From positions 1 to 24,518 of the forward strand of contig JAFDWI010000355.1 in the NCBI GenBank assembly GCA_018268545.1: 24,518 nt of DNA, in the 5' to 3' direction. The notes beneath the pieces were generated by a model. It worked only from the letters and a program-made list of their open reading frames with translations. It did not search any database and was not told where the DNA came from. The stretch comes from Actinomycetota bacterium (GTDB lineage Bacteria; Actinomycetota; Acidimicrobiia; Acidimicrobiales; Iamiaceae). Both the position numbers and the translations under genes were made by a program. Position 1 is the first letter of the stretch. Every line of letters starts with the position of its first letter. This document shows, piece after piece, positions 19,401-24,518 of the stretch.

Positions 19401-19476
19401 GCGGACGTGGCTCAGTTGGTAGAGCATCACCTTGCCAAGGTGAGGGTCGCGGGTTCGAATCCCGTCGTCCGCTCCA
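19401..19476 (+). tRNA. tRNA-Gly (GCC), CCA encoded
   Basis: Acceptor GCGGACG/CGTCCGC, D arm GCTCAGTTGGTAGAGC, anticodon arm TCACC-TTGCCAA-GGTGA, T loop GTTCGAATC, U discriminator plus CCA; 76 nt. Confidence 0.98.
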
Positions 19477-19538: not shown

Positions 19539-20987
19539 TCAATCGACGCGGAGCATCCGGACCGTGTCGCTCACCGGTTCGATCGCCTCGGGCGCCCCGA
19601 CCATGACCGCGACGAGATCGCCCTGGTGGATGTGGCCGTTTCGCAGCGCTTCGGTGACCGCTGCTGACACGGTGCCGTCGGTCGATGACCTGGGTTCGAC
19701 GAGCATCGGCGTGATACCCCACGCGACGGAGAGTTCCCGGGCGACCCGATCGGTGTAGGTCGCCGCCAGGATCGGGGCCGTCGGTCGGAATCTCGAGATC
19801 GCCTTGGGTGTGGCGCCCGACGCGGTGCAGGCGATGATGGCCGAGACCGGCGTGTCGAGCGTTGCCCGCCACGTGGCCGCCGAGATCGCTCCGGTGATCC
19901 GTCGTGTGATCGGCGTGTCCTGGCCCGCGACGGTCTGCTCGTGACCGATCGACAGTCCCCACTGGTACGAGTCGAACTCGGCATCAGCTCGGCGTGTGAT
20001 GCGGTCCATCGTCTTGATCACGTTCACGGGGTCGTGTCCCACCGCTGTCTCACCCGACAGCATGACCGCGCTCGTGCCGTCGAACACCGCGGTCGTCACA
20101 TCCGCGACCTCGGCTCGGGTCGGAACGGGCGCACGCACCATCGACTCGAGCATCTGCGTCGCGGTGATCACCGGCCGGCCGTACGCCACGCCGGTCCGGA
20201 TGACACGCTTCTGGAAATGCGGCACATCCTCGAATGCGCAACTGATGCCGAGGTCGCCGCGCGCGATCATCACGCCATCCGCGGTCGCGACGATCTCGTC
20301 GACGTTCGCGACCGCGTCCGCGGTCTCCAACTTCGCGATCAGCCGAGGCCCGCGACGTCCGGTCACCGCGCGTGCGCGTTCGATGTCGGCCGCGCTGCGG
20401 ACGAACGAGATCGCGACCATCTCGACGGGGGCATCACACAGCGCCCGCAGCGCGACCAGGTCGGAATCGGTCGGCGAAGCGAGGTCCAGGTGCTCGGTCG
20501 GGATTGTCACCCCCGGTCGGCCGCGCGTGAAGCCGCCGTTGAGGACCTTCGCCGTCACCGGACCGCCGTCGTTGCCCAAGACGGTCAGTTCGATCGCGCC
20601 GTCGCCGAGCACCACCCGGTCGCCTGCTCGGAGAACCTCGGCGGCATTCGGGAAGTCGATGATGATCCGCTGCGCCGTGCTCGACTCGTCCGCGGCTGTT
20701 GCCGACACGAGCTCGACGATGGCGCCGTCGTCGAGGCGCGTCTCACCATCGGCGAAGGTCGCTGCCCGGATCTTCGGTCCGGGCAGGTCGGCGAGGATGC
20801 CGATGTGTCGGCCCGACTCGGATGCGAGGTGGGCGATCCGACCGATCAGCTCGAGCGCATCGTCGAGGCTCGAGTGCGAAAGCGACACCCGTGCAGTGTC
20901 CATCCCCGCTTCGATCATGCCGGTCAGTGTCTCCGGATCCCAGGAAGCTGGTCCGATGGTGGCGACGATCTTGGTGCGACGGGTCAT
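19539..20987 (-). CDS. pyk: Pyruvate kinase
   Basis: RRTKIVATIGPAS, LADLPGPKIR, AISFVRS, IAKLET, MIARGDLG, TATQMLESM, PTRAEVADV, AVMLSGETAVG. Confidence 0.97.
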   Translation of the reverse strand: MTRRTKIVATIGPASWDPETLTGMIEAGMDTARVSLSHSSLDDALELIGRIAHLASESGRHIGILADLPGPKIRAATFADGETRLDDGAIVELVSATAADESSTAQRIIIDFPNAAEVLRAGDRVVLGDGAIELTVLGNDGGPVTAKVLNGGFTRGRPGVTIPTEHLDLASPTDSDLVALRALCDAPVEMVAISFVRSAADIERARAVTGRRGPRLIAKLETADAVANVDEIVATADGVMIARGDLGISCAFEDVPHFQKRVIRTGVAYGRPVITATQMLESMVRAPVPTRAEVADVTTAVFDGTSAVMLSGETAVGHDPVNVIKTMDRITRRADAEFDSYQWGLSIGHEQTVAGQDTPITRRITGAISAATWRATLDTPVSAIIACTASGATPKAISRFRPTAPILAATYTDRVARELSVAWGITPMLVEPRSSTDGTVSAAVTEALRNGHIHQGDLVAVMVGAPEAIEPVSDTVRMLRVD

Positions 20988-21095
20988 CCTGGCACCGTAG
21001 CGGCGACCGGGGTCCGAACCATCGGCGACTCCGCCGGGCGCCGATGCCCGATGCCCCTCGCCCTGACAGATGGCACATGTTGCCTGTCACGGCAC

Positions 21096-21101
21096 TAGGG
21101 T
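21096..21101 (+). promoter_or_regulatory. Putative -10 element for the riboswitch transcript
   Basis: TAGGGT (TAnnnT) ending about 6 nt before the predicted riboswitch 5' end. Confidence 0.5.
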
Positions 21102-21107
21102 GAGGCG

Positions 21108-21223
21108 CGACAACCAATGGTCCGTCGTGGAGACGGGGGAAGTCCGGTGTGAATCCGGCGCTGACCCGCAACCGTGGTCGAAGGTGTGAACCTTCGCGAG
21201 CCGGGATACCCGTTCCGACGTCG
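21108..21223 (+). ncRNA. Cobalamin (B12) riboswitch, compact form
   Basis: Conserved core GGT..P2 hairpin (CCGTC/GACGG)..GGGAA-GTCCGGTGTGAATCCGGC-GCTGACCCGCAACCGTG, then one hairpin (CGAAGG/CCTTCG), then the B12 box GAGCCGGGATACC. AATGG (21116-20) can pair with CCGTT (21210-14). Boundaries are approximate. Confidence 0.92.
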
Positions 21224-21313
21224 TACCTTCCGACCCGTCGAGGAACGCGGAGCGGAGGGGCCCGATCGGGTCGCTTTGCTCGGCGGTCGTCGACTCGATC
21301 CCAGGAGATCAAG

Positions 21314-22456
21314 ATGCGACGCATCATTGCAACCGTCGTCGTGTTGGCGACGCTCTACGCCGGTGCGGGAGTCACCGCGGCAGCGCCGACCACCGATTCG
21401 ACATCGATCCGAACTGCGGCGATCGCGTGGCTCGCGCCGCAGGTCACCGCCGAGGGAGCGTTGATCAGCCCGTACACCTCGGCGCCCGACCCGAGCCTCA
21501 CCGCACAGGCCCTGCTCGGGCTCGCAGCTTCCGGATCCGAGCCCGCGACGGTGACCAGGATGGTGGCCTGGCTCGAAACGCAGGTCCAGGCGTTCGTGGC
21601 ACCTGGTCACGCCGCGGACTCACCGGGTGCGTTGGCGTGGTTGATCCTCGATGCGGAGGCGACCGGTGTCGATCCGACCGACTTCGGCGGCGTGGACCTC
21701 GTGACGCGCCTCGAGGCCACGCAACGATCGAACGGACTGTTCGGTGCAGCGGATCCGACCTATGACGGTTCGTTCCGCCAGGGTCTTTCGTTGATCGCGT
21801 TGTCGTCGGTGGGGCATCACGACACCGCGGGTCTCGCGTGGTTGGAATCCCAGCAGTGCACCGGCGGCGCGTATGTCGCGTATCGTGCCGACCTCTCGAT
21901 TCCCTGCCCGGCGGTCGACGTGTCGACCTTCACCGGGCCGGATACGAACTCGACCGCGATGGCGGCGATGGCGTTGTCGCTCGGGGGAGCGGCTTCACCG
22001 GCCGCCGCCGCGATGACGTGGCTGCAGTCGGTTCGCACCCCCGCCGGTGGATTCCCGTACCTCGGCGACCCGACGATCGCCGAGGACGCCAACTCGACTG
22101 GCCTCGTCGCACTCGCGTTCCGCACCGTCGACGGCAGCACCGATGCCGGTTCGGTCGCGGCGCTCGCCTCGTTGCAGGTTCCGGCAACCGGGCCTGTCGC
22201 CGACCGTGGCGGGATCGCCTTCCAACCCCAGGGTGGCAGCCTCGTCCCGGACCTGTCCGCGACCGCGCAGGCGCTGATGGGCCTCGCCGGGCAGGCCTTC
22301 CCGTTCCGTCCGGCCGCGCCGCCGACGACCTCGACGACGTCCACGACGATGCCGGGTTCGACGACGTCCACGACAACGCCGTCGACCACGCCGTCGACTA
22401 CGCCACCGCCGCCGGTCGCGACGCCGGTGCGTGCCGTTCCGACGTTCACCGGCTGA
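21314..22456 (+). CDS. Secreted prenyltransferase/squalene-oxidase-repeat (alpha/alpha-toroid) protein; candidate B12-binding alpha-domain
   Basis: AGGAG RBS, signal peptide MRRIIATVVVLATLYAGAGVTAAA. Repeats of WL..Q...GG and D.N/S.T..A..AL type, a Thr/Pro tail, and C-terminus PVRAVPTFTG. First gene under the riboswitch. Confidence 0.8.
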   Translation: MRRIIATVVVLATLYAGAGVTAAAPTTDSTSIRTAAIAWLAPQVTAEGALISPYTSAPDPSLTAQALLGLAASGSEPATVTRMVAWLETQVQAFVAPGHAADSPGALAWLILDAEATGVDPTDFGGVDLVTRLEATQRSNGLFGAADPTYDGSFRQGLSLIALSSVGHHDTAGLAWLESQQCTGGAYVAYRADLSIPCPAVDVSTFTGPDTNSTAMAAMALSLGGAASPAAAAMTWLQSVRTPAGGFPYLGDPTIAEDANSTGLVALAFRTVDGSTDAGSVAALASLQVPATGPVADRGGIAFQPQGGSLVPDLSATAQALMGLAGQAFPFRPAAPPTTSTTSTTMPGSTTSTTTPSTTPSTTPPPPVATPVRAVPTFTG

Positions 22457-22473
22457 CGGGTTCGTCTCGAACG

Positions 22474-23439
22474 ATGCGATGGCATCGACGCATCGCGATC
22501 CTCGGGGTCGGTGCGCTGGCCGTGGTCGGCGCGCGGGCCCCGGCGGTCGCCGGCGCGAGCACGCGGGCTGCCTGCGCGGCGGGTGACGCCCACGTCGCGG
22601 TCGTGGTCGACTTCGGGTCGGCGCCGGGTGCACCGAACGGCGTCCTGGGGTCCTGCGTGGACGTGCCCGGATCCGCAAACGGCATGACTGCGCTCCGCGC
22701 AGCGGATCAGGTCGGGGTCGACTCGAGCGGCAAGGTCTGCCAGATCGCCGGCTTTCCGGCCACGTACGACCCCACGAACTGTTCGGCACCCCAGAACGGC
22801 CAACTCTCCTACTGGGCCTATTTCCACGGCATGCCCGACGGGTGGACCTACAGTTCGATCGGAGCCGGTGGCTGGCGCGTGCAGCCGTCGGTGGTCGAAG
22901 GATGGCACTTCGTGACGGTGGCGGTCACCCAACAGTCGTCGGCCCCGCCGCCACGGAACTTCGACAACGGCGCGTCGTATCTGTGGCAGTCGACCTGTGC
23001 AGATTCGAACGGCCAACCACCCTCCACCGCGTCGCCGACCCCGCCCCCGGCGTTCTCGGGCACATCACCAGGATCGCAGCCCGGCGCCGGTGCCGGCGCA
23101 TCGAGTACCGGCGGGTCGCCCTCGGCGTCGACTTCGATGCCGGCCGCCGGATCATCGGCGTCGCCGACGTCCCAGGTCGGCCCCGCTTCGTCGGAGGTGG
23201 TGACTGGTCGAGCAGACGGGTCGGAGACGACCGGATTGCGTTCGGGTCGATCGGCGGCGAGGTTGTCGCGTGCCCAGGTGGCCGCAGCGGCGAAGGTGGC
23301 ATCCGGGCGAACCAGGGGAGTGCCGATCAGCCGGATGCTCGGTGCCGGCCTGGCGATCGCTTCGATCGCGGCGATCCTCGTGTACCTCACCCGCCGATCA
23401 CGGCATCGTGCCGCGACGGGCTCGATCGATCAGGATTGA
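22474..23439 (+). CDS. Membrane-anchored exported protein with DUF4430/transcobalamin-C-terminal-like (SCO2322-like) domain
   Basis: Signal-like N-terminus; VAVVVDFG...C...G.TAL...VCQIAGFP...C...YWAYFH...WTYSSIGA...PSVVEGWHF; Ser/Pro/Ala stalk; C-terminal TM (LGAGLAIASIAAILVYLT) plus RRSRHR. Confidence 0.75.
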   Translation: MRWHRRIAILGVGALAVVGARAPAVAGASTRAACAAGDAHVAVVVDFGSAPGAPNGVLGSCVDVPGSANGMTALRAADQVGVDSSGKVCQIAGFPATYDPTNCSAPQNGQLSYWAYFHGMPDGWTYSSIGAGGWRVQPSVVEGWHFVTVAVTQQSSAPPPRNFDNGASYLWQSTCADSNGQPPSTASPTPPPAFSGTSPGSQPGAGAGASSTGGSPSASTSMPAAGSSASPTSQVGPASSEVVTGRADGSETTGLRSGRSAARLSRAQVAAAAKVASGRTRGVPISRMLGAGLAIASIAAILVYLTRRSRHRAATGSIDQD

Positions 23440-24518
23440 TCGTCTCCGGAAGCTTCGGTGTCGGCCGACTGTGCCCACGGACTCTTGTCCGGAGTGTCGG
23501 CCGGTTCCGGGTTCGACAAGCGCCGATGGACGCCGAGGAGCGACTCGAGGTCCGATCCCTGCGGCGAGGCCGCTGCGGTTGTCGGGGACGCCACGGCCGG
23601 TGCGGCCACCGTTGACGGCGAACTCTCCGCGGCCGCTGCGGGAGCGGAAGCCGTCCGAGCGGAACGACTGCGAGCGAGCAGCCGCTCTCCAATGGTCACC
23701 GTTGCGGTCGTGCCGTCGGCGTCCGACCGGAGTTCGACGCTGATCCCGAGCCCGGTAGCCAGGTGCCCTGCCACGAAGTGACCCATGTAGCGCGAAGGTG
23801 CGACCGTGAAGGACTCCTGACCCGACAGGCGACGGTTCGCGGTTTCGACCTGCTCGGGTGTCATCCCGATCCCGTGGTCGACGATGGTGATCTCGTACCC
23901 GTCGGTGAGCCGTCGCCCCGACACGTCGACCGTCGTGGTCGGCGGCGAGAAGTTCAGACCGTTCTCGATCAGCTCGGCGAGGATGTGCGCGAGGTCGGCC
24001 GCGACGCTCGTCGGGAGTCGCGCCTCGTCGACGTTGCCGATCGTGACCCGGGTGTACTCGTCGACCTCGCTGAGCGCGGACCGCAGCGCGTCGATGACGG
24101 GGGCAGGTTGACCTGCACGGCGCTGACGGGTCACCCCGGCGAGCACGATCAGCGATTCGGCGTTACGGCGGATCCGGGTGGCGAGGTGGTCGAGCTTGAA
24201 GAGGTTCTCGAGCACCTGCTCGTCTTCCTCGGTGCGCTCCAGGTCGGTGATGAAGTCGAGTTGGCGGGCCACGAGGCCTTGGACCCGTCGGCCGAGGTTG
24301 AGGAACGAGTCGGCGAAGTTGCGGCGTTGCATCGCCTGCTCGACGGCGAGTTGAAGTGCGCGTTGTTGGACATCGTTGATCGACCGCGCGACGTCGCGCA
24401 CCTCGTCGCGGCTGGACACGACGATCGGTTCGAGTTTCGGTTCGACGATGTCCTCACCGATGGGCGTCGCGAGCACGCTGCCGACGGCCTCGGGGAGTCC
24501 CTTGGTCGCCATCGAGTG
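23430..24518 (-). CDS. Actinobacterial CvnA/conservon-type sensor histidine kinase, C-terminal part (5' end outside window)
   Basis: Frame stays open to the window edge. HAMP-like RDEVRDVARSIN; RRVQGLVARQL..I..LE; LFKLDHLATRIRRNAESLIVLAG; N box LAELIENGLNFSPP; G1 IVDHGIGM; G2 region MGHFVAGHLA. Confidence 0.88.
   Translation of the reverse strand, partial: HSMATKGLPEAVGSVLATPIGEDIVEPKLEPIVVSSRDEVRDVARSINDVQQRALQLAVEQAMQRRNFADSFLNLGRRVQGLVARQLDFITDLERTEEDEQVLENLFKLDHLATRIRRNAESLIVLAGVTRQRRAGQPAPVIDALRSALSEVDEYTRVTIGNVDEARLPTSVAADLAHILAELIENGLNFSPPTTTVDVSGRRLTDGYEITIVDHGIGMTPEQVETANRRLSGQESFTVAPSRYMGHFVAGHLATGLGISVELRSDADGTTATVTIGERLLARSRSARTASAPAAAAESSPSTVAAPAVASPTTAAASPQGSDLESLLGVHRRLSNPEPADTPDKSPWAQSADTEASGDDQS

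What the first reader, a model, noticed from the sequence alone, without database searches (positions are those of the whole stretch)
21108..23439. B12-riboswitch operon encoding an apparent 'split transcobalamin' surface cobalamin clamp
Seen: a clear cobalamin riboswitch followed by two exported proteins 17 nt apart. The first has alpha/alpha-toroid (prenyltransferase-like) repeats. The second has a small Trp/Tyr-rich domain (YWAYF...WTYSSIGA...VEGWHF) on a TM-anchored stalk. Established: animal transcobalamin, intrinsic factor and haptocorrin consist of an alpha6/alpha6 barrel plus a small beta domain that sandwich cobalamin, and DUF4430 is the beta-domain-like bacterial family. Inference: the two genes are the two halves as separate polypeptides that assemble on B12 at the cell surface, i.e. 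a ligand-induced heterodimeric corrinoid scavenger. From memory, similar gene pairs occur in B12-regulated Streptomyces loci, but I know of no demonstrated mechanism.
Basis: partly seen in the sequence, partly recalled or inferred. Interest (0 to 1): 0.88.

Follow-up and report, generated by a model that had tools for sequence, protein, structure and literature searches.

The report
B12-switched split transcobalamin-like surface pair
A vitamin-B12-sensing RNA switch controls two exported proteins whose predicted folds match the two halves of the human B12 carrier transcobalamin; they most likely catch B12 outside the cell for an ECF importer that this genome encodes elsewhere under a second B12 switch, a layout already predicted in 2007 and described in Lactobacillus but never tested biochemically.

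Summary
Rfam finds a cobalamin riboswitch at 21086-21231. It is followed by gene A (21314-22456) and gene B (22474-23439), 17 nt apart.

A folds as a 12-helix alpha/alpha toroid. Its nearest structures are squalene-hopene-cyclase-like proteins (Z 26). The transcobalamin alpha domain also matches (Z 20.6). The cyclase catalytic motif is lost.

B's globular domain folds like the beta domain of transcobalamin, intrinsic factor and haptocorrin (Z 10.2-11.1; next unrelated fold 5.7). It is a remote relative of DUF4430 (hhalign 87%).

Supporting context:
- Natural A-B fusions exist in the alpha-then-beta order.
- B lies next to A in 61 of 80 related loci, and 59 of 80 carry the riboswitch.
- Most relatives continue into ECF transporter genes.
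- Here and in five close relatives the ECF genes sit elsewhere, behind the genome's other cobalamin riboswitch.
- None of the six genomes shows CobD or CobS. The window's own genome also has at least four B12-binding-domain proteins.

So the "split transcobalamin" reading passes every computational test I could run. B12 binding and ligand-induced pairing remain untested.

The concept is not new (Burroughs 2007; L. sakei Lsa1839/1840), and this scan has met the system in at least 21 other genomes. Particular to this clade are the split regulon and an anchor-less A.

The parts
21086..21231 (+). Cobalamin riboswitch aptamer (RF00174)
   Evidence: cmscan gives 44.8 bits against a gathering score of 31.5, E 1.9e-8, full model 1-189. 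It is one of only two such elements in the 2.63 Mb assembly.
21232..21313 (+). Expression platform and leader, with Shine-Dalgarno AGGAG 8 nt before the start codon
   Evidence: Read directly from the sequence. No intrinsic terminator was found. The MFE fold places the SD in a small hairpin. Translational control is inferred and not resolved.
21314..22456 (+). Gene A: secreted alpha6/alpha6-toroid protein (380 aa). It is a SCO2321-like, catalytically degenerate squalene-cyclase-like domain (about residues 26-335), followed by a Thr/Pro linker. It ends ...PTFTG-stop with no hydrophobic anchor.
   Evidence: NCBIfam SCO2321_fam 184 bits, below the cut-off of 300. AF2 pLDDT 89.2. VIA Z 26 to terpene cyclases and 20.6 to rat transcobalamin. 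The position of the SHC DxDDTA motif reads PDLSATAQA. C-termini compared.
22474..23439 (+). Gene B: type I membrane-anchored protein (321 aa). It has a signal peptide, a transcobalamin-beta/DUF4430-like SLBB domain (about residues 26-175), a low-complexity stalk, and a C-terminal TM helix with a basic tail. It belongs to the SCO2322 family.
   Evidence: NCBIfam SCO2322_fam 48.6 bits, below the cut-off of 85. Precomputed Pfam PF28005. AF2 pLDDT 92.9. Foldseek's top 15 hits are all TC/HC/IF. VIA Z 10.2-11.1. hhalign against DUF4430 gives 86.9%.

Best explanation
This is the extracellular capture half of a B12-riboswitch regulon for corrinoid uptake.

When intracellular cobalamin is low, the riboswitch allows expression of two proteins. 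A is a secreted 12-helix alpha/alpha toroid. B is a transcobalamin-beta/DUF4430-type beta-grasp domain held on a flexible stalk of about 100 residues by a C-terminal membrane helix.

By analogy with transcobalamin, intrinsic factor and haptocorrin, A and B are inferred to clamp one corrinoid between the open face of the toroid and the beta domain. They would then pass it to the S component of an ECF importer. That importer (T - fused ATPases - S) is encoded on another contig of the same genome, behind the genome's only other cobalamin riboswitch.

What is shown: the riboswitch, the two folds, the conserved A-B pairing, natural A-B fusions, linkage to an ECF module in cis or in trans, and no CobD or CobS match in this clade.

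What is inferred: corrinoid binding, A-B heterodimerisation, hand-over to the S component, and the mode of riboswitch control.
For: - Riboswitch at gathering level.
- B-domain model has pLDDT 92.9. Its 15 best PDB matches are all transcobalamin, haptocorrin or intrinsic factor beta domains. Z is 10.2-11.1 with rmsd about 1.9 A over 94-100 residues; DUF4430 protein 3u7z gives Z 9.9; the next unrelated fold gives Z 5.7.
[quoted passage not shown] That is the signature of the transcobalamin-like SLBB clade (PMC1796856).
- Profile-profile match of the B family to DUF4430: 86.9%, E 4e-6, 95 columns.
- AFDB neighbours include DUF4430 proteins, 'Transcobalamin-like C-terminal domain' proteins, and 658- and 810-aa squalene-cyclase-domain fusions.
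- A model has pLDDT 89.2 and 12 helices. The transcobalamin alpha domain aligns at Z 20.6 over 248 residues.
- Fusions P0242, P0272 and P0273 carry SCO2321-like then SCO2322-like parts. P0242 occurs in two assemblies, directly before CbiQ - ATPase - ECF S.
- B lies next to A in 61 of 80 loci, and two loci have tandem A-B-A-B.
- A cobalamin-clan riboswitch lies upstream of A in 59 of 80 loci.
- 36 of 80 loci continue into CbiQ-like T and ATPase genes.
- The window's own genome has a second riboswitch in front of T - fused ATPases - S. The same split occurs in five close relatives.
- The genome has at least four B12-binding-domain proteins. No CobD/CbiB or CobS match was found in it or in the five relatives.
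Against: - No binding, interaction or transport data exist for this family.
- A is closer to terpene cyclases (Z 26) than to transcobalamin (Z 20.6), so a toroid fold alone does not imply corrinoid binding.
- No A-B complex model could be made.
- The S component shows no sequence or profile link to the known B12 S component CbrT.
- The one homologous system with genetics, in L. sakei, was assigned to heme and not B12 (bioRxiv 10.1101/864751).
- The genome is a 77.5%-complete MAG, so the absence of CobD and CobS is provisional.
Confidence: 0.68

Rival explanations
1. Only B, the DUF4430/transcobalamin-beta-like domain, binds the corrinoid. A does another job at the surface, for example as a wall-associated scaffold or by stripping B12 from foreign carriers. 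No B12-bridged A-B sandwich forms.
For: The isolated human transcobalamin beta domain binds cobalamin on its own (PDB 5np4 title). Burroughs et al. describe many bacterial stand-alone SLBB proteins without a toroid. In 12 untruncated loci A occurs without B nearby. A is structurally closer to cyclases than to transcobalamin.
Against: A and B are adjacent in 61 of 80 loci. They are duplicated together as A-B-A-B. They are fused in the alpha-then-beta order in nature. The B-less A loci mostly lack the riboswitch (4 of 12, against 50 of 61 for loci with B). That pattern suggests those copies are paralogues with another role.
Confidence: 0.15
2. The pair captures a different ligand for the ECF importer, such as heme or another tetrapyrrole, or cobalt. 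The B12 riboswitch would only couple its uptake to B12 status.
For: The L. sakei Lsa1836-1840 system, with separate alpha-like and beta-like proteins, was proposed to import heme. Cobalamin riboswitches also control cobalt transporters in B12 producers (general knowledge, Rodionov et al. 2003). The S component is not CbrT-like.
Against: No CobD/CbiB or CobS match was found in this genome or in five relatives, so cobalt for B12 synthesis would be pointless. The S component is of the ECF_trnsprt type and not CbiM. The only two cobalamin riboswitches in the genome control exactly these two units. Both folds match corrinoid-binding domains.
Confidence: 0.1
3. A is an active extracellular enzyme of the alpha/alpha-toroid class (terpene cyclase, prenyltransferase or glycoside hydrolase), and the riboswitch link is incidental.
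For: The best structural and sequence matches are squalene-hopene cyclases and drimenyl diphosphate synthase. GH76-type and other glycosidase toroids score Z 20-22.
Against: The SHC DxDDTA acid motif aligns to PDLSATAQA, so the catalytic aspartates after the first are lost. The protein is secreted, and in relatives sortase-anchored, away from isoprenoid diphosphates. The riboswitch, B and ECF linkage is conserved across tens of genomes.
Confidence: 0.04

Closest known systems
Latilactobacillus sakei lsa1836-1840 ECF-like system (Verplaetse et al., bioRxiv 10.1101/864751)
   Same: It has separately encoded extracellular proteins resembling the transcobalamin beta (Lsa1839) and alpha (Lsa1840) domains. 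They were modelled as a heterodimer and are encoded together with an ECF T, ATPases and S component.
   Different: It is from a Firmicute, and its authors proposed heme as the ligand. I have no evidence about a B12 riboswitch there. Here the proteins belong to the actinobacterial SCO2321/SCO2322 families. They are riboswitch-controlled, and the ECF genes lie at a separate locus under their own riboswitch.
Transcobalamin-like clade of the SLBB beta-grasp superfamily / Pfam DUF4430 (Burroughs, Balaji, Iyer, Aravind 2007, PMC1796856)
   Same: These are secreted or anchored beta-grasp domains with a hairpin insert after the helix. They are often fused to an alpha/alpha toroid, sit in CbiO/CbiQ operons, occur in B12 non-producers, and were predicted to scavenge B12. 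B matches on fold and at profile level.
   Different: B gives no hit to the Pfam DUF4430 model. It belongs to a separate family, PF28005/NF040672. In a sample of 301 Actinomycetota genomes, DUF4430 proper was not found in the window's order or class. That paper described the clade mainly in low-GC Gram-positives.
Animal transcobalamin / intrinsic factor / haptocorrin (e.g. PDB 2bb5, 3kq4, 4kki, 8ixu)
   Same: They have an alpha6/alpha6 barrel plus a small beta domain. B superposes on the beta domains at Z 10-11 and A on the alpha domain at Z 20.6. Natural bacterial fusions keep the alpha-then-beta order.
   Different: Here there are two polypeptides. Sequence identity is only 12-18%. There is no Pfam Cobalamin_bind hit, and A is nearer to terpene cyclases. 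Delivery would be to an ECF importer and not to an endocytic receptor. Binding is unproven.
Streptomyces coelicolor SCO2321-SCO2322-type operon (NCBIfam NF053823, NF040672)
   Same: Same two families in the same gene order. In many relatives they are followed by CbiQ - ATPase - S.
   Different: The window's proteins score below both curated cut-offs (184 against 300; 48.6 against 85). A lacks the LPXTG membrane anchor of typical members. The transporter genes are unlinked. I found no paper on the function of SCO2321 or SCO2322.
ECF-CbrT vitamin B12 importer of Lactobacillus delbrueckii (Santos et al. 2018, PMC5997447)
   Same: It is an ECF-type importer for cobalamin.
   Different: That paper's text mentions no extracellular transcobalamin-like accessory proteins. 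The S component here shows no detectable sequence relation to CbrT.

Membership tests
Cobalamin riboswitch (Rfam RF00174) | Covariance-model score at or above the curated gathering score | tested here: met
   44.8 bits against 31.5, full-length match.
Transcobalamin / IF / haptocorrin family | C-terminal beta domain: beta-grasp with a hairpin insert after the helix | tested here: met
   VIA Z 10.2-11.1, rmsd about 1.9 A over 94-100 residues, next unrelated fold Z 5.7. Hairpin E55-57 / E63-66 follows helix 45-52.
Transcobalamin / IF / haptocorrin family | N-terminal alpha6/alpha6 barrel | tested here: met
   12 helices in the model. Rat transcobalamin gives Z 20.6 over 248 residues, but terpene cyclases score higher (Z 26).
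Transcobalamin / IF / haptocorrin family | Sequence-level membership (Pfam Cobalamin_bind, or a hit to TC/IF/HC sequences) | tested here: not met
   No Pfam hit at E <= 1. No TC/IF/HC hit by phmmer or by profile against PDB sequences.
Transcobalamin / IF / haptocorrin family | Both domains on one polypeptide | tested here: not met
   Two genes 17 nt apart. Fused relatives do exist.
Transcobalamin / IF / haptocorrin family | Binds one corrinoid between the two domains | not testable with these tools
   No ligand docking or complex prediction was available.
DUF4430 (PF14478) / transcobalamin-like SLBB clade | Match to the Pfam model | tested here: not met
   No hit at E <= 1. No PF14478 match anywhere in the window's own genome.
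DUF4430 (PF14478) / transcobalamin-like SLBB clade | Remote homology by profile-profile comparison | tested here: inconclusive
   hhalign gives probability 86.9%, E 4.2e-6, 95 aligned columns across the whole domain. This is suggestive but below the usual 95% level. The fold match to DUF4430 protein 3u7z is Z 9.9.
DUF4430 (PF14478) / transcobalamin-like SLBB clade | Secreted or surface protein encoded with CbiQ/CbiO-type transporter genes | tested here: met
   Signal peptide and TM anchor. CbiQ and ATPase follow in 36 of 80 related loci. In this genome they are in trans under a second riboswitch.
NCBIfam SCO2321_fam (NF053823) and SCO2322_fam (NF040672) | Score above the curated cut-off | tested here: not met
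   184.2 against 300 bits, and 48.6 against 85 bits. These are the best and only family hits. The precomputed Pfam PF28005 'SCO2322' assignment holds for B. Both proteins are therefore divergent members.
Class II terpene cyclase (squalene-hopene cyclase type) | Catalytic DxDD(TA) acid motif | tested here: not met
   The SHC segment PDV(D/C)DTAVV aligns to PDLSATAQA in A. Only the first Asp is kept.
Class II terpene cyclase (squalene-hopene cyclase type) | Alpha/alpha toroid fold with QW-like repeats | tested here: met
   Profile E 3.3e-7 to 2sqc. Z 26.
Sortase (LPXTG) substrate | LPXTG motif followed by a hydrophobic segment and a basic tail | tested here: not met
   A ends ...VPTFTG-stop. Twenty close homologues (P0002-P0021) end P-x-[YF]-[TA]-G-stop. 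Most of the more distant homologues listed have LPRTG plus TM plus RRRR. Sortase genes are present in the genome.
ECF transporter (group I, dedicated module) | T component, two ATPase domains and S component encoded together | tested here: met
   Contig C407 carries CbiQ (26 bits), fused ABC_tran x2, and ECF_trnsprt (28.9 bits, just under the Pfam cut-off of 30.7). The S homologues are annotated as ECF S components.

The most novel reading that the evidence does not exclude
In this Iamiaceae-like clade the toroid protein A has lost its sortase anchor. It keeps a conserved P-x-[YF]-[TA]-G C-terminus and is released as a soluble extracellular corrinoid carrier. It would scavenge B12 at a distance, then dock on the membrane-tethered beta-domain protein B to close a transcobalamin-like sandwich and hand the vitamin to an unlinked, co-regulated ECF importer. 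This would be a bacterial two-component 'cobalaminophore' shuttle, and the bacterial ancestor-type of the animal B12 carriers working in split form.
Probability: 0.2. Interest if true: 0.7.

Novelty: new variant of a known kind. Interest (0 to 1): 0.45.

Why it matters
Most bacteria that need B12 cannot make it, and how Gram-positive and actinobacterial cells catch it at picomolar levels is poorly understood. Surface transcobalamin-like binders feeding ECF importers were predicted in 2007 and modelled once in Lactobacillus, with heme proposed as the ligand. No member has been shown to bind a corrinoid.

This locus adds three things.
- The actinobacterial SCO2322 family, which Pfam does not link to DUF4430, has the transcobalamin beta-domain fold.
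- A '2-gene operon without a transporter' is explained by a second riboswitch-controlled ECF unit elsewhere in the genome.
- A clade in which the toroid half has lost its wall anchor suits a direct test of whether B12 drives assembly of the two halves.

It also bears on the proposed bacterial origin of animal B12 carriers.

Tried and rejected
- **Fused A~B alignment for a complex model.** I built it twice, with full-length homologues and with domain slices (A2, A4). MAFFT laid the B homologues over the A region. I dropped the complex prediction and spent the two structure jobs on A and B separately.
- **Sequence-only links to transcobalamin.** phmmer and hmmsearch of A, B and their profiles against PDB sequences gave none. 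Only fold comparison and hhalign show the relation.
- **Link of the S component to CbrT.** Single sequence, NCBIfam and a 32-sequence profile all found nothing.
- **Intrinsic terminator in the leader.** None was found. Folding of the platform was not decisive.
- **Literature on SCO2321/SCO2322.** Only an unrelated peptide paper turned up. The RegPrecise riboswitch paper and the ECF-CbrT paper do not mention these proteins.
- **Loss of sortase as the reason for the anchor-less A.** Rejected, because sortases are present in this genome and in five relatives.
- **A as an enzyme.** Rejected on the lost DxDD motif and its secretion.
- **Fusion P0272.** It may be an assembly artefact, since its contig has a split CobU. 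I rely mainly on P0242, which is seen in two assemblies.
Full report
**Observation**

The window is contig C283 of a 2.63 Mb metagenome-assembled genome with 408 contigs, 77.5% complete. GC content is about 68%. Its closest relatives are labelled Iamiaceae / Acidimicrobiales.

Rfam places a full-length cobalamin riboswitch at 21086-21231 on the + strand (44.8 bits, gathering score 31.5, E 1.9e-8). Gene A starts at ATG 21314, with AGGAG 8 nt upstream, and ends at 22456 (380 aa). Gene B runs from 22474 to 23439 (321 aa). The gap between them is 17 nt.

Both proteins begin with signal peptides. The flanking genes converge or diverge and are unrelated: pyruvate kinase at 19539-20987 (-) and an HATPase_c protein at 23430-24512 (-). 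The transcription unit therefore holds just these two genes.

**What the proteins are**

Local Pfam gives nothing for either protein. NCBIfam gives sub-threshold hits: SCO2321_fam for A (184 bits, cut-off 300) and SCO2322_fam for B (48.6 bits, cut-off 85). The precomputed Pfam family for B and its homologues is PF28005 'SCO2322'.

*Protein B.* I collected relatives of the B domain by an exhaustive phmmer search (672 hits at E <= 1e-3) and aligned 90 domain slices (A3).
- AlphaFold2 gave a model with mean pLDDT 92.9.
- Foldseek against the PDB returned transcobalamin, haptocorrin and intrinsic factor as all of the top 15 hits. TM normalised to the isolated human beta domain (5no0) is 0.61.
- VIA-align gave Z 10.2-11.1 with rmsd about 1.9 A over 94-100 residues. 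The DUF4430 protein 3u7z gave Z 9.9. The next unrelated fold gave Z 5.7.
- The model has a two-strand hairpin directly after the single core helix. Burroughs et al. give this as the signature of the transcobalamin-like SLBB clade (PMC1796856).
- A profile of actinobacterial DUF4430 domains (A5, built from loci) aligns to the B profile across the whole domain at 86.9% probability, E 4e-6.
- AFDB cluster neighbours include DUF4430 proteins, a 'Transcobalamin-like C-terminal domain' protein, and two long 'squalene cyclase C-terminal domain' proteins that carry this domain.

*Protein A.* A 60-sequence profile hits squalene-hopene cyclase at E 3e-7.
- The AF2 model (pLDDT 89.2) has 12 helices after the signal peptide, which makes an alpha6/alpha6 toroid.
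- Its nearest structures are class II terpene cyclase domains (Z 26). Transcobalamin aligns at Z 20.6 over 248 residues.
- The cyclase DxDDTA acid motif aligns to PDLSATAQA, so the catalytic aspartates are gone.
- A is therefore a secreted, catalytically degenerate toroid. It shares the fold class of the transcobalamin alpha domain but is not demonstrably a member of that family.

**Do A and B belong together, and with B12?**

- Three proteins from the exhaustive search are natural fusions with a SCO2321-like N-terminal part and a SCO2322-like C-terminal part, the same order as in transcobalamin. One of them (P0242, 676 aa) occurs in two assemblies. There it takes the place of the A+B pair directly in front of CbiQ - fused ATPases - ECF S.
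- Among 80 genome loci holding an A homologue, an HMM of the B domain finds B beside A in 61. Seven of the 19 negatives are truncated contigs. Two loci carry tandem A-B-A-B.
- Rfam finds a cobalamin-clan riboswitch on the coding strand just upstream of A in 59 of 80 loci: 20, 15, 12 and 12 per batch of 20. The riboswitch is present in 50 of the 61 loci that have B, but in only 4 of the 12 untruncated loci that lack B.
- In 36 of 80 loci the operon continues into a CbiQ-like T component, and in 34 of those an ECF ATPase is also detected within the 3 kb of downstream flank. A fully annotated example is A(LPXTG) - B - CbiQ - ATPases - 274-aa protein.

**Where is the transporter here?**

The genome has exactly two cobalamin riboswitches. 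The second, at C407:8614-8756 (-), directly precedes a CbiQ-like T component, a fused double ABC ATPase and an ECF_trnsprt S component.
- These are 37-58% (T) and 47-72% (ATPase) identical to the genes that follow A-B in other genomes.
- The seven nearest loci (L006-L012) also lack ECF genes after A or A-B (in L010 the contig ends within A).
- In the five genomes of that group that I searched, the other riboswitch again sits directly in front of the T and ATPase genes.

The ancestral five-gene operon has therefore been split into two co-regulated units in this clade.

**Physiology**

The genome encodes at least four proteins with B12-binding domains. Neither CobD/CbiB nor CobS was found in it or in the five relatives. 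Six of six negatives argue against an assembly gap, although completeness figures are not available for the five relatives. The clade appears to depend on imported, complete corrinoids.

**Mechanism proposed**

1. Low B12 relieves the riboswitch. Control is probably translational: no terminator was found, and this step is inferred.
2. A is secreted, and B is displayed on a long stalk.
3. The toroid face of A and the hairpin face of B clamp a corrinoid, as in transcobalamin (inferred from the folds, the fusions and the co-occurrence).
4. The ligand passes to the ECF S component (inferred from operon linkage and the shared regulon).

**A clade-specific twist**

Twenty close homologues of A (P0002-P0021) end in P-x-[YF]-[TA]-G followed by the stop codon, and the window's own protein ends ...PTFTG. 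Most of the more distant homologues listed carry a canonical LPRTG motif, a hydrophobic segment and an RRRR tail. Sortases are present. A therefore looks truly anchor-less here. It could be retained only through B, or it could act as a released carrier.

**Comparison with what is known**

- Burroughs et al. 2007 already predicted that secreted transcobalamin-like SLBB domains in Gram-positives scavenge B12. They noted that these domains are often fused to alpha/alpha toroids and encoded with CbiO/CbiQ.
- Verplaetse et al. described separately encoded alpha-like and beta-like proteins in the L. sakei lsa1836-1840 ECF operon. They modelled them as a heterodimer but argued for heme as the ligand.
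- This scan has reported the same system at least 22 times in at least 21 other genomes. One earlier follow-up judged that only the toroid resembles transcobalamin; my fold and profile results for B contradict that. Another found a two-gene version with the 'transporter missing'; the split regulon found here offers an explanation to test there.
- I found no paper on SCO2321/SCO2322 function and no biochemical proof for any member.

**Verdict**

The feature is real and coherent, and its function is well constrained by inference. It is a new variant of a predicted but untested kind, not a new kind. Interest is moderate. It lies mainly in testability, because the split, anchor-less form allows a clean test of ligand-induced assembly, and in linking the actinobacterial SCO2322 family to the transcobalamin beta domain.

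Noticed in passing
window 22412-22456 (C-terminus of gene A): A ends ...PVRAVPTFTG-stop. Twenty close homologues (P0002-P0021) end P-x-[YF]-[TA]-G-stop without a hydrophobic tail. Most of the more distant homologues listed have LPRTG plus TM plus RRRR. The spacing is P-x-x-T-G, not LPxTG. Sortase genes are present. Its role is unknown: it could be a remnant, a docking tail or a new sorting signal.
   Followed up: partly
own genome, contig C407:4725-8756 (locus L005): A second cobalamin riboswitch heads an ECF T - fused double ATPase - S component unit. This is the detached transporter half of the same regulon. The arrangement is conserved in five related genomes.
   Followed up: yes
L086 / L096 (related genome G004, contig C126:2196-2522): Two divergently oriented cobalamin riboswitches (85 and 38.9 bits) each precede a toroid paralogue only about 30% identical to A. 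This looks like a further B12-regulated toroid pair. Any partner genes were not examined.
   Followed up: partly
L043 and L053: Tandem duplication of the whole pair (A-B-A-B) in two Actinomycetota genomes.
   Followed up: no
phylum-wide sample: Pfam DUF4430 proper occurs in 53 of 301 sampled Actinomycetota genomes. It was found in none of the sampled genomes of the window's own order or class, where the SCO2322-type domain is found instead. This may be a complementary distribution.
   Followed up: no
window 19401-19473: A tRNA gene (73.4 bits) lies just downstream of the 3' end of the pyruvate kinase gene. The tRNA - pyruvate kinase - riboswitch - A - B - HATPase synteny is kept in a relative (L003).
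   Followed up: no
L098 (contig carrying fusion P0272): Downstream genes look fragmented: CobU is split into 171 and 62 aa, and there is a 126-aa ABC fragment. This A-B 'fusion' could therefore be a frameshift artefact of that assembly. CobU and CobT (DBI_PRT) lie nearby.
   Followed up: no
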